Assembly: GCF_003334815.1 (NCBI RefSeq)
Contig: NZ_QOWO01000131.1
DNA length: 391 bases
Strand: one strand, 5' to 3'
From: Escherichia coli
GTDB lineage: Bacteria; Pseudomonadota; Gammaproteobacteria; Enterobacterales; Enterobacteriaceae
Shown here: piece after piece, positions 1-391 of the stretch
Numbering within the stretch: position 1 is the first letter of the stretch
Layout: each line of letters opens with the position of its first letter
Program-made: the position numbers and the translations under genes
Notes under the pieces: model-generated
The model's database searches: none
The model's input: the letters and a program-made list of their open reading frames with translations, nothing else
What the model was told of the DNA's origin: nothing

Positions 1-75
1 CGCGAGGCATCGTCTTAACGAGGCACCGAGGCGTCGCATTCTTCAGATGGTTCAACCCTTAAGTTAGCGCTTATG
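1..75. mobile_element. Terminus of an IS186-like insertion sequence (IS4 family); element body extends beyond the window start
   Basis: + strand 53..75 reads CAACCCTTAAGTTAGCGCTTATG, whose reverse complement CATAAGCGCTAACTTAAGGGTTG matches the IS186 terminal inverted repeat as I recall it. The adjacent flank (minus strand GGGGGTAAAACC) fits the G-run/A-T core/C-run targets IS186 prefers. The boundary at 75 is approximate to about 1 bp. Identification is from memory and was not searched. Confidence 0.6.
53..75. repeat. 23-bp terminal inverted repeat of the IS186-like element
   Basis: Sequence CAACCCTTAAGTTAGCGCTTATG ends at the junction with the toxin-side flank. The second copy of the inverted repeat would lie at the other end of the element, outside the window. 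Confidence 0.55.
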
Positions 76-96
76 GGTTTTACCCCCGCGTGGTGG

Positions 97-249
97 CTAC
101 TTCTTCGATTCGTAAGCGAGAACTGCCTTAAACTCCATACCACGTTCTCTGATACTCAACTCACACAACGAGTCGCCTACCATCAGCGTGAATCCCAGTA
201 CTGTAAAACACAGCACTATGATTGCCACAAGGGCATATTTTGTCAGCAT
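97..249 (-). CDS. hokE: Hok/Gef family type I toxin (HokE-like small membrane toxin), 50 aa
   Basis: Minus-strand ATG at 249..247 is preceded by GGAGG (260..256) with a 6-nt spacer; 50 sense codons run to TAG (99..97). Translation: [50 protein letters not shown]. It has an N-terminal hydrophobic transmembrane stretch ([19 protein letters not shown]), then the conserved D-S-L-C-E block and C-terminal A-Y-E-S motif typical of Hok/Gef toxins. Closest to E. coli HokE by recollection, but not identical to the sequence I remember, so the paralogue and strain are unverified. Confidence 0.9.
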
Positions 250-252
250 GTC

Positions 253-281
253 TTGCCTCCCTGCAAAGAAGAGACTAACAT
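253..281 (+). promoter_or_regulatory. Candidate sigma70 promoter for an antisense Sok-like RNA (-35 TTGCCT 253..258, 17-bp spacer, -10 TAACAT 276..281)
   Basis: Both hexamers match consensus 4/6 with optimal 17-bp spacing. The -35 overlaps the toxin RBS on the opposite strand, which is the arrangement I recall for the plasmid R1 sok promoter relative to the hok RBS. Predicted transcription start is near 288..289. Confidence 0.35.
256..260 (-). promoter_or_regulatory. Shine-Dalgarno sequence (GGAGG) for the hok-like toxin
   Basis: Minus-strand GGAGG lies 6 nt upstream of the toxin ATG (sequence gcagGGAGGcaagacATG). Confidence 0.7.
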
Positions 282-287
282 TCGAAT

Positions 288-391
288 TGTTTGGGTTCGA
301 ACGTAAGCCTCAGGTTGTACTGACCCCAAAAAGTTGGACAGTTAAACACGAGGCATATAGGTCTGATTCCGATATTCAATTGGAGTCAGAC
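288..391 (+). ncRNA. sokE: Candidate Sok-like antisense RNA (antitoxin), complementary to the toxin mRNA leader; 3' end not defined
   Basis: Inferred from the candidate promoter and hok/sok locus architecture. The transcript would be antisense to the toxin leader and could end at the 361..391 stem-loop, but no U-tract is visible because the window ends there. Extent is speculative. Confidence 0.25.
361..391. repeat. Inverted repeat forming a 10-bp stem with 11-nt loop (GTCTGATTCC / GGAGTCAGAC)
   Basis: 361..370 pairs with 382..391. On the + strand RNA there is one G-U wobble; on the minus-strand RNA one A-C mismatch. It lies in the toxin mRNA leader and the candidate antisense RNA region. 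The window ends at the stem, so downstream context is unseen. Confidence 0.6.

What the first reader, a model, noticed from the sequence alone, without database searches (positions are those of the whole stretch)
361..391. Strong stem-loop at the distal edge of the toxin leader
A 10-bp inverted repeat with an 11-nt loop sits about 110 nt upstream of the toxin start. On the + strand it could be the terminator or structured 3' domain of the antisense RNA. On the minus strand it could be one of the leader hairpins that control ribosome access in hok-type mRNAs. The window ends at the stem, so neither a downstream U-tract nor the toxin promoter can be seen.
Basis: seen in the sequence. Interest (0 to 1): 0.3.

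Follow-up and report, generated by a model that had tools for sequence, protein, structure and literature searches.

The report
IS150 inward terminator, not toxin leader
The stem-loop is real, but it is not part of the hok toxin leader: it lies in the right end of an IS150 insertion sequence that has split the hokX/sokX locus, where it is an inward-facing transcription terminator conserved across IS150-type elements.

Summary
The inverted repeat at 361-391 is real and well beyond chance. In full context it is a 15-bp stem with a 5-nt loop (359-393).

Window 316-391 is the right end of a 1443-bp IS150. It has terminal inverted repeats and a 3-bp GGT target duplication, and it is inserted into the hokX leader / sokX gene of E. 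coli B. The hairpin lies in the last codons of the transposase orfB.

The true hok 5' leader hairpins and promoter lie 1.44 kb away. Loci without the IS match the Rfam hok-leader model at 113 bits.

On the + strand the stem is followed by TTTAATTT. In K-12, which has an identical IS150 copy, published Term-seq maps an RNA 3' end 6 nt after this stem in three conditions.

Across 67 IS150-group relatives the stem shows compensatory changes in 12 of 15 pairs. Some of these change amino acids. The strand antisense to the transposase folds better.

In this window the only recognisable promoter aimed at the hairpin is sokX. IS150 split sokX's own terminator. A chimeric SokX-IS150 RNA of about 111 nt ending at this hairpin is predicted but not shown.

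Verdict: observation confirmed; interpretation partly right (a + strand terminator), wrong about origin.

The parts
97..249 (-). hok-family toxin gene (hokX-type, 50 aa, [50 protein letters not shown])
   Evidence: ORF; annotated Hok/Gef family protein WP_000956460.1 in REL606
234..315 (-). Retained 3' part of the hok mRNA leader (Sok-target hairpin, Shine-Dalgarno region, start of hok). Its 5' part is cut off by IS150.
   Evidence: Rfam RF01794 positions about 85-157 align here with high posterior probability. The same bases are part of a full-length 113-bit match in the IS-free locus L002.
253..289 (+). sokX antisense promoter and start: -35 TTGCCT 253-258, 17-nt spacer, -10 TAACAT 276-281, start at 289
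   Evidence: Bases identical to K-12 sokX. The annotated sokX 5' end (NC_000913.3 2,887,353) maps to window 289. A SokX 3' end is detected by Term-seq in K-12, so the promoter is active there. Hexamers read from the sequence; they fall below the threshold of the consensus scan.
289..315 (+). First 27 nt of SokX RNA: the target-recognition part and the first bases of the 5' arm of its native terminator, which IS150 interrupts
   Evidence: Alignment with intact loci. Native terminator CCTCAGGTTGATAGAAATATCGCCTGGGGCTTTTGT, with a mapped 3' end in K-12.
313..315 (.). Target-site duplication GGT (second copy at L001 4759-4761)
   Evidence: The empty site has a single GGT and is contiguous in 5293 of 5426 E. 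coli genomes.
316..391 (-). Right end of IS150 (element nt 1443 back to 1368; whole element L001 3316-4758, 1443 bp), including the imperfect terminal inverted repeat at about 316-346
   Evidence: Annotated IS3-like element IS150 family transposase. Length, TGTACTG...CAGTACA ends and 22 of 31 terminal positions matching. The 76 nt are 100% identical to IS150 copies in 2828 genomes, including K-12.
342..391 (-). Last codons of IS150 orfB (...GLTPIEYRNQTYMPRV, stop TAA at 344-342)
   Evidence: CDS end; translation
359..391 (+). Inward-facing terminator hairpin of IS150: 15-bp stem and 5-nt loop, 359-393. The last 2 stem bases and the tail TTTAATTT lie just beyond the window (L001 3392-3401).
   Evidence: Terminator scan; folds. 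Term-seq 3' end 6 nt after the stem in the identical K-12 copy. Covariation in 67 relatives.

Best explanation
The stem-loop belongs to IS150, not to hok/sok.

Origin. A 1443-bp IS150 inserted, with a GGT duplication, into the 5' arm of the SokX terminator. This position is also the hokX mRNA leader, just upstream of the Sok-target hairpin. Window 316-391 is the element's right end. The hairpin lies 43 nt inside that end, within the last 17 codons of transposase orfB, but its functional strand is the one antisense to the transposase.

Mechanism. RNA polymerase entering the element through its right end transcribes a 15-bp hairpin followed by UUUAAUUU and terminates. The element is thereby insulated from outside transcription that would run antisense through the transposase gene.

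What is shown and what is inferred. The IS150 identity and the hairpin's position are shown. RNA 3'-end formation at the hairpin is shown experimentally only for the identical K-12 copy. Selection on the structure across the IS150 group is shown by covariation. The insulating purpose is inferred.

Consequence in this locus. hokX is separated from its own promoter and 5' regulatory hairpins. The sokX promoter (start at 289) now fires into the IS150 right end. Its transcripts should end at the IS150 terminator as a SokX-IS150 chimera of about 111 nt (predicted 3' end at NC_012967 2,774,518, + strand). This last step is inferred.
For: IS150 identity:
- The annotation, 1443-bp length, terminal repeats, 3-bp duplication and frameshifted orfAB all fit.
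- The 76 nt are identical to IS150 copies in 2828 genomes.
- The empty site is contiguous in 5293 of 5426 genomes. The exact junction occurs in 113 genomes.

The true leader is elsewhere:
- RF01794 scores 113 bits full-length on the IS-free locus.
- It splits into 75.8 bits (beyond the IS) and 41.6 bits (window, below the gathering score of 59) when IS150 is present.

Terminator form:
- 15 pairs, a 5-nt loop and the tail TTTAATTT; -22.9 kcal/mol, z = -6.3.
- The + strand is much more stable than the - strand.

Terminator activity:
- Adams et al. 2021 (PMC7815308, Supplementary file 1) list a 3' end at MG1655 3,721,992 (-), antisense to insK.
- The flanking sequence they give, CGAGGCATATAGGTCTGATTCCGATATTCAATTGGAGTCAGACCTTTTAAT|TTCAGGCTAA, is identical to this window.
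- The end appears in LB OD 0.4, LB OD 2.0 and M63, with 191,424, 365,502 and 282,496 reads.
- These counts are comparable to the dapD and can terminators on the same strand in the same sheet.
- In K-12 the hokA promoter points into that IS150 end.

Conservation:
- Data set: 67 distinct IS150-group relatives from several phyla.
- 87.4% of cells are paired. 12 of 15 pairs show double changes (143 cells). The covariation score is 0.436 against 0.189 in shuffles (0 of 500 reach it) and at most 0.149 in slid controls.
- Pairing exceeds a synonymous-codon null: 13.1 against 9.4 of 15.
- The antisense strand is better paired in 48 elements against 7 and more stable in 54 against 12, Wilcoxon p = 1e-9.
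- 52 of 67 are terminator-like on the antisense strand against 2 on the sense strand.

sokX: the promoter is identical to that of K-12 sokX, whose RNA 3' end is mapped at its native terminator.
Against: - No transcript data exist for this locus in E. coli B. The SokX-IS150 chimera is a prediction.
- A Term-seq 3' end can also arise by exonuclease trimming back to a stable hairpin. Rho-independence was not tested.
- The U-rich tail is encoded by conserved Lys-Leu-Lys codons. It is only slightly richer in T than a synonymous-codon null (5.2 against 4.7 of 8), so the tail itself shows no clear independent selection.
- The shuffle controls ignore phylogeny.
- A few relatives (L006, L008, L012, L024, L032, L090) have lost the stem.
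- A strand-specific ssDNA role would fit the same wobble asymmetry.
- The benefit to the element (insulation) is inferred.
Confidence: 0.75

Rival explanations
1. The hairpin is a hok mRNA leader hairpin (tac or metastable type) that controls ribosome access.
For: Rfam RF01794 aligned the hairpin to the model's 5' hairpin (positions 15-47) on the - strand, E = 3.6e-8 for the whole match.
Against: The match scores 41.6 bits, below the gathering score of 59, and all its well-aligned part lies at 311-234. In IS-free loci the model's 5' hairpin is filled by a different sequence (GUCUGGCGUUAAGCAUUCGCGAGGUUCCAGAU) at 113 bits. The hairpin is 100% identical to IS150 copies at unrelated sites. It lies in the orfB coding sequence and folds weakly on the - strand.
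Confidence: 0.01
2. The hairpin is the native terminator or 3' domain of the Sok antisense RNA.
For: It lies downstream of the sokX promoter on the + strand and is followed by a T-run.
Against: The native SokX terminator is CCTCAGGTTGATAGAAATATCGCCTGGGG + CTTTTGT, with a mapped 3' end in K-12. In this window it is cut after CCTCAGGT by IS150, and the remainder lies at L001 4762 onward.
Confidence: 0.02
3. The conserved stem is selected as a strand-specific single-stranded DNA structure used during copy-out-paste-in transposition of IS3-family elements, for example at replication of the figure-eight intermediate. On this reading, termination of RNA is incidental.
For: There is deep conservation with covariation next to the right inverted repeat. 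G.T wobble asymmetry would also fit ssDNA of one strand. The tail is not clearly selected beyond codon constraints.
Against: No known step of IS3-family transposition needs such a hairpin (established knowledge; no support found in the searches). A mapped RNA 3' end in the U-tract shows the RNA-level activity exists. 52 of 67 relatives keep stem plus T-rich tail together.
Confidence: 0.12
4. The stem acts on the sense (transposase mRNA) strand, for example as a 3' stabiliser or a translational pause before the stop codon.
For: The sense strand still pairs 12.1 of 15 positions on average, above its null of 8.9. A minor sense-strand 3' end at MG1655 3,722,036 (+), 4 nt after the stem, appears in M63 only, with 899 reads, near the listing floor.
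Against: Wobble asymmetry: pairs that are G.U only on the antisense strand are kept at 84% of the null level (1.76 against 2.09). Pairs that are G.U only on the sense strand fall to 45% (0.72 against 1.59). The mid-stem pair at columns 14-28 is U.G on the antisense strand, which is an A.C mismatch on the sense strand, in 41 of 67 relatives. Mean stability is -18.7 (antisense) against -15.1 kcal/mol (sense). There is no U-tract after the sense hairpin (2 of 67).
Confidence: 0.08

Closest known systems
IS150 of Escherichia coli (IS3 family, IS150 group)
   Same: Window 316-391 is identical to its right end. The whole 1443-bp element with inverted repeats, a 3-bp duplication and frameshifted orfA-orfB is present.
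   Different: Nothing differs in the element itself. The hairpin's role as an inward terminator is not described in any paper I could search or open. The original IS150 papers were not held.
sok::IS150 alleles (sokE::IS150 in more than 400 natural isolates, sokA::IS150 in MG1655; PMC11551753, citing Pedersen and Gerdes 1999)
   Same: The event is of the same kind: IS150 in the sok gene / hok leader of a chromosomal hok/sok locus. In the sokE copy I inspected, position and orientation match (L004, TSD GGG).
   Different: This is a different paralogue, the cysH-adjacent hokX/sokX locus, present in 113 of 5426 genomes. K-12 hokA has the opposite orientation and no target duplication.
Transcription terminators inside insertion sequences (IS1 internal terminator, Hubner, Iida and Arber 1987; polar IS2), as cited in PMC12095673
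   Same: It is an IS-borne signal that stops transcription coming from outside the element.
   Different: Here the terminator is encoded on the strand antisense to the last codons of the transposase gene, directly inside the right inverted repeat. It is kept across phyla by compensatory changes that alter amino acids.
hok mRNA leader structure (tac, ucb/dcb, sokT; region covered by Rfam RF01794)
   Same: The window's 234-315 is the 3' part of such a leader, including the Sok-target hairpin.
   Different: The hairpin at 361-391 is not part of it. The true 5' hairpins lie beyond the IS.

Membership tests
hok mRNA leader (Rfam RF01794 region) | The hairpin is contiguous with the leader in loci without insertions | tested here: not met
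   The empty site joins window 315 directly to L001 4762. The hairpin is absent from IS-free loci.
hok mRNA leader (Rfam RF01794 region) | Covariance-model match at or above the gathering score that includes the hairpin | tested here: not met
   41.6 bits against a gathering score of 59 in the window. The IS-free locus scores 113 bits with another sequence in that model hairpin.
Native Sok antisense RNA terminator | Stem-loop plus U-tract directly following the Sok recognition domain, with the RNA 3' end there | tested here: not met
   The native terminator and its mapped 3' end (K-12 2,887,407) are a different sequence. In the window it is split after CCTCAGGT.
IS150 (IS3 family) | About 1.44 kb, TG...CA imperfect terminal inverted repeats, 3-bp target duplication | tested here: met
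   1443 bp, TGTACTG...CAGTACA, GGT on both sides.
IS150 (IS3 family) | orfA-orfB with a -1 frameshift (A AAA AAG) encoding a DDE transposase; near-identity to reference copies | tested here: met
   RefSeq annotation 'programmed frameshift'. AAAAAAG lies at element offset 529 and both frames are open. The right end is 100% identical to the K-12 copy. The DDE domain was not scanned separately.
Intrinsic (Rho-independent) terminator | Stable G+C-containing stem-loop immediately followed by a U-rich tract | tested here: met
   15 pairs (6 G-C), 5-nt loop, tail TTTAATTT; -22.9 kcal/mol.
Intrinsic (Rho-independent) terminator | RNA 3' ends map within the U-tract in vivo | tested here: met
   For the identical K-12 copy: 3' end 6 nt after the stem in three conditions (Adams et al. 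2021). Not available for this E. coli B locus.
Intrinsic (Rho-independent) terminator | Termination by RNA polymerase alone, independent of Rho and of exonuclease trimming | not testable with these tools
   Needs in vitro transcription or bicyclomycin and RNase-mutant data for this site.

The most novel reading that the evidence does not exclude
IS150-group insertion sequences carry a previously undescribed, family-wide intrinsic terminator. It is written on the strand antisense to the last codons of the transposase gene and is maintained by compensatory substitutions that dictate the protein's C-terminal residues: Leu/Gln swapping to Met/His or Lys/Leu, and the Gly wobble base setting the residue seven codons later.

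When such an element lands in its recurrent hot spot in hok/sok loci, this terminator replaces the Sok terminator it destroys and yields a chimeric antitoxin RNA. That could explain why the same site and orientation recur in three independent loci.
Probability: 0.35. Interest if true: 0.55.

Novelty: new member of a known kind. Interest (0 to 1): 0.38.

Why it matters
For annotating this window, the point is corrective. Nothing at 361-391 belongs to hok/sok regulation. hokX here is cut off from its promoter and 5' control hairpins, as in other IS-inactivated chromosomal hok loci.

More broadly, the hairpin is an example of a coding sequence whose amino acids covary to keep an RNA structure on the opposite strand. 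It gives IS150-type elements a built-in barrier to transcription entering at the right end.

That matters for reading the polar and regulatory effects of IS150 insertions, which are a major mutation class in E. coli B evolution experiments. It also matters for understanding what sok::IS150 alleles actually express.

Tried and rejected
- The Rfam match of the hairpin to the sok/hok-leader model is a chance substitution. It was rejected after scoring IS-free and IS-containing loci.
- The consensus promoter scan found no promoter in the IS150 right end or for sokX. The sokX promoter was instead placed by identity to the annotated K-12 sokX.
- An inward TTGGAC...TATAGG pair in the right inverted repeat was considered as a source of transcripts. 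It was set aside because the -10 is poor and the 150-bp IS150 right end has no detectable promoter activity on either strand (PMC12095673).
- Literature searches for an IS150 or IS3-family terminator or hairpin found no description. Haas and Rak 2002 is not held. The deep-mutational study of IS150 ends does not discuss a hairpin.
- A second Term-seq paper has no held supplements.
- Enrichment of T in the tail beyond codon constraints was tested and is weak (5.2 against 4.7). It is not claimed as evidence.
- L013 was dropped because its orfB carries an early stop.

Full report
**1. The observation**

The window carries a hok-family toxin gene on the - strand (249..97, 50 aa). It also carries the reported inverted repeat at 361-391.

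- The repeat finder reports arms 361-373 and 379-391: 13 nt, 85% complementary, 5 nt apart.
- As RNA the + strand folds into 13 uninterrupted pairs, two of them G.U: -17.5 kcal/mol, z = -7.2, 0 of 200 shuffles as good.
- The - strand has A.C mismatches at those two positions and reaches only -10.1 kcal/mol, z = -3.0.

So the repeat is real, more than chance, and markedly better on the + strand.

**2. Where the window comes from**

The window is 100% identical to E. coli B REL606 (NC_012967 2,774,120-2,774,510) and to other strains. The annotated features under the match are a Hok/Gef protein and an 'IS3-like element IS150 family transposase'.

In the REL606 locus (L001; window position = locus position - 3000), the transposase CDS runs on the - strand from 4711 to 3342. 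Its stop codon is therefore at window 344-342.

Reading the DNA on both sides gives these features:
- TGTACTGACCCC... starts at window 316.
- ...GGGTGCAGTACA ends at L001 4758, so the element is exactly 1443 bp.
- 22 of the first 31 terminal positions match as inverted repeats.
- GGT is present on both sides (window 313-315 and L001 4759-4761).

The element has the two overlapping frames and the A AAA AAG slippery site. orfB ends ...KGLTPIEYRNQTYMPRV*. The hairpin is element nt 1366-1400.

The 76 nt at window 316-391 occur at 100% identity in IS150 copies of 2828 genomes, at many sites and on plasmids, including the single K-12 copy.

**3. The empty site and the true leader**

I joined window 1-315 to L001 4762 onward in silico. 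This gives a sequence that is contiguous in 5293 of 5426 complete E. coli genomes, many at 100% identity. The exact leader-IS150 junction of this window is present in 113 genomes.

| Locus | RF01794 result |
|---|---|
| IS-free (L002, strain W5-6) | 113 bits, full length (gathering score 59) |
| REL606, beyond the IS (L001 4837-4762) | 75.8 bits; the match then runs meaninglessly into the IS left end |
| Window | 41.6 bits |

In one search the IS150 hairpin had been aligned to the model's 5' hairpin. In the IS-free locus that model hairpin is filled by a different sequence, so the alignment in the window is a chance substitution.

The hok promoter region and the 5' end (GGGTGCTTGAGGC...) lie next to the cysH terminator, 1.44 kb from the toxin gene.

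**4. Which hok/sok locus this is**

- In K-12 the same cysH-adjacent site carries the annotated small RNA sokX (NC_000913.3 2,887,353-2,887,411).
- K-12 and the window are identical from the hok start codon through CATGTCTTGCCTCCCTGCAAAGAAGAGACTAACATTCGAATTGTTTGGGTTCGAACG.
- This places -35 TTGCCT at window 253-258, -10 TAACAT at 276-281 and the SokX start at 289.
- Term-seq in K-12 maps the SokX 3' end at 2,887,407 (+), after CCTCAGGTTGATAGAAATATCGCCTGGGGCTTTTGT (Adams et al. 2021, PMC7815308).

In the window IS150 sits after CCTCAGGT, inside the 5' arm of that terminator. Only 27 nt of SokX (289-315) remain joined to its promoter.

**5. What the hairpin is in IS150**

On the + strand, which is antisense to the transposase and reads into the element from its right end, the full stem is AGGTCTGATTCCGAT-ATTCA-ATTGGAGTCAGACCT. 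That is 15 pairs, followed by TTTAATTT. It is one of only two terminator-like sites in 2.1 kb; the other is the cysH terminator.

Experimental evidence exists for the identical K-12 copy. Supplementary file 1 of Adams et al. 2021 lists a curated Term-seq 3' end at 3,721,992 (-), classed as antisense to insJK/insK.
- The flanking sequence given is CGAGGCATATAGGTCTGATTCCGATATTCAATTGGAGTCAGACCTTTTAATTTCAGGCTAA.
- It appears in all three conditions, with 191,424, 365,502 and 282,496 mean reads.
- In the 61-nt strings of that table the 3' end is position 51. I checked this on sokC.
- The RNA therefore ends ...GACCUUUUAAU, 6 nt after the stem.
- The counts are similar to those of the dapD and can terminators on the same strand in the same sheet.

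In K-12 the transcript most likely comes from the hokA promoter. This promoter (-10 TAGAAT, leader start GGGTGCTTGAG at L003 1722) points into the IS150 right end 79 nt downstream. glyS has its own strong terminator upstream of it.

**6. Conservation**

I collected relatives of the OrfB C-terminus from plasmids and from one genome per species (54-64% amino-acid identity; Proteobacteria, Bacteroidota, Bacillota). I aligned them in codon register around the KLKGLSPVxYRxQx motif, without reference to structure.

Pairing in 67 distinct sequences (15 stem positions):

| Measure | Observed | Synonymous-codon null |
|---|---|---|
| Watson-Crick pairs | 11.3 | 7.3 |
| Standard pairs, sense strand | 12.1 | 8.9 |
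| Standard pairs, antisense strand | 13.1 | 9.4 |

- The null used each element's own codon usage. 64% of elements are individually at p < 0.01 on the antisense strand.
- On the antisense alignment (A2), 87.4% of cells pair.
- 12 of 15 pairs show changes on both sides (143 cells).
- The covariation score is 0.436, against 0.189 in shuffles (0 of 500 reach it) and at most 0.149 in slid controls.

Some compensations change the protein (read):
- Leu(CTG/TTG) with Gln(CAG/CAA) swaps to Met(ATG) with His(CAT), or to Lys with Leu.
- The wobble base of the Gly codon matches the residue seven codons on: GGT-Thr ACC, GGC-Ala GCC, GGA-Ser TCC, GGG-Pro CCC.
- Asp pairs with Val.

**7. Which strand**

- Pairs that are G.U only on the antisense strand stay near the null level (1.76 against 2.09 per element). 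Pairs that are G.U only on the sense strand are depleted (0.72 against 1.59).
- The mid-stem pair at columns 14-28 is U.G on the antisense strand in 41 of 67.
- The antisense strand is better paired in 48 elements, the sense strand in 7.
- The antisense strand is more stable in 54, the sense strand in 12: -18.7 against -15.1 kcal/mol, Wilcoxon p = 1e-9.
- Stem plus at least 5 T in the next 8 nt occurs in 52 of 67 on the antisense strand and in 2 of 67 on the sense strand.

Caveats:
- The T-rich tail is the complement of conserved Lys-Leu-Lys codons. It is only slightly above the codon null (5.2 against 4.7).
- The shuffles do not model phylogeny.
- Six relatives have lost the stem.

**8. Mechanism proposed**

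- Shown: the hairpin is IS150's, in orfB's last codons. It is a conserved, strand-biased structure. An RNA 3' end forms in its U-tract in vivo in K-12.
- Inferred: it is a Rho-independent terminator that stops transcription entering at the right end, keeping antisense transcription out of the transposase gene.
- Inferred for this window: SokX transcripts from 289 cross the junction and end at the hairpin, giving an RNA of about 111 nt. Its 5' 17 nt are predicted to be open. The IS150 hairpin forms as the 3' domain (-42.9 kcal/mol, z = -6.5).

hokX keeps its coding sequence and the Sok-target hairpin but has lost its promoter and 5' control elements. The IS150 right end has no detectable outward promoter activity (PMC12095673). 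Any hokX transcription would therefore have to come from read-through of the transposase gene.

**9. Comparison with what is known**

- IS150 insertions in sok genes are documented: sokE::IS150 in more than 400 isolates, and sokA::IS150 in MG1655 (PMC11551753).
- Repeated new IS150 insertions next to hokC, hokE and mokB occur in REL606-derived evolution lines (PMC5419217).
- Terminators inside IS elements are a known kind (IS1 and IS2, cited in PMC12095673).
- I found no description of this IS150 hairpin as a terminator or as a conserved structure. The original IS150 papers could not be opened, so prior mention cannot be excluded.
- The K-12 3' end sits unremarked in a published table.

**10. 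Verdict**

It is right in form for the + strand, where the hairpin is a terminator.

As an annotation of hok/sok the finding is ordinary: an IS-disrupted chromosomal hok locus. The family-wide antisense terminator embedded in orfB is a modestly interesting by-product that deserves a direct test.

Noticed in passing
window 313-316; L004 1845-1850 and 3291-3296; L005 about 915-990: IS150-type elements sit at the same spot (5' arm of the Sok terminator, just upstream of the Sok-target hairpin) and in the same orientation in three different hok/sok loci. These are hokX here (TSD GGT), a hokE copy in strain CFSAN061769 (TSD GGG), and ISKpn8 in a plasmid hok/sok of K. pneumoniae pC51_002. This suggests an insertion hot spot, and possibly an orientation bias in which the IS terminator faces the Sok promoter.
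   Followed up: partly
L003 1700-1900 and 3240-3280 (K-12 hokA locus): In K-12 hokA, IS150 lies in the opposite orientation and has no target duplication (GTT on one side, TAC on the other). Only 33 nt separate its left end from the hokA start codon. An adjacent deletion probably removed the Sok-target region. The hokA promoter now fires into the IS150 right end and is probably the source of the Term-seq 3' end at 3,721,992.
   Followed up: partly
IS150 orfB C-terminus (window 342-391 and L001 3392-3420); relatives L005-L093: Amino-acid pairs in the transposase C-terminus covary because their codons base-pair: Leu/Gln, Met/His, Lys/Leu and Asp/Val. The Gly wobble base also matches Thr, Ala, Ser or Pro seven codons later. 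Here a nucleic-acid structure shapes the protein sequence.
   Followed up: yes
window 3-36 and 349-356: Three direct copies of CGAGGCA(T/C)CG lie at 3-12, 19-28 and 27-36, in the 3' region of the hok transcript where the fold-back element would be expected. The 8-mer CGAGGCAT recurs inside the IS150 right end (349-356). I did not work out whether the 3' copies pair with the distant 5' end (GGGTGCTTGAGGC).
   Followed up: no
L094 321-455 compared with window 180-250: K-12 keeps sokX but not the hok coding sequence. Homology with the window starts exactly at the hok start codon, and cas3 follows in K-12. In REL606 the space between the CRISPR array and cysH holds IS421, hokX and IS150 instead of cas genes.
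   Followed up: partly
L001 1792-2904; L002 60-1172: An IS421 (IS4-like) transposase gene lies about 100 bp downstream of the hok transcript end, both in REL606 and in the IS150-free strain W5-6. The locus is therefore flanked or cut by two different IS elements in E. coli B.
   Followed up: no
MG1655 3,722,036 (+), equivalent to window about 357 (- strand): A weak sense-strand Term-seq 3' end lies 4 nt after the hairpin inside insK. It is seen only in M63 medium, with 899 reads, near the listing floor. It may be a pause or a processing stop at the weaker sense-strand hairpin.
   Followed up: no
window 234-391 (- strand); L002 1502-1659: Rfam family RF01794, named 'sok antitoxin', matches on the toxin (hok mRNA) strand and ends at the hok ATG. 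As modelled it describes the hok leader rather than the strand of the Sok RNA.
   Followed up: no
MG1655 3,720,745 (+), inside insJ: Supplementary file 2 of Adams et al. 2021 lists a Rho termination region inside IS150 orfA (insJ) on the sense strand. This hints at premature Rho-dependent termination of the transposase transcript.
   Followed up: no
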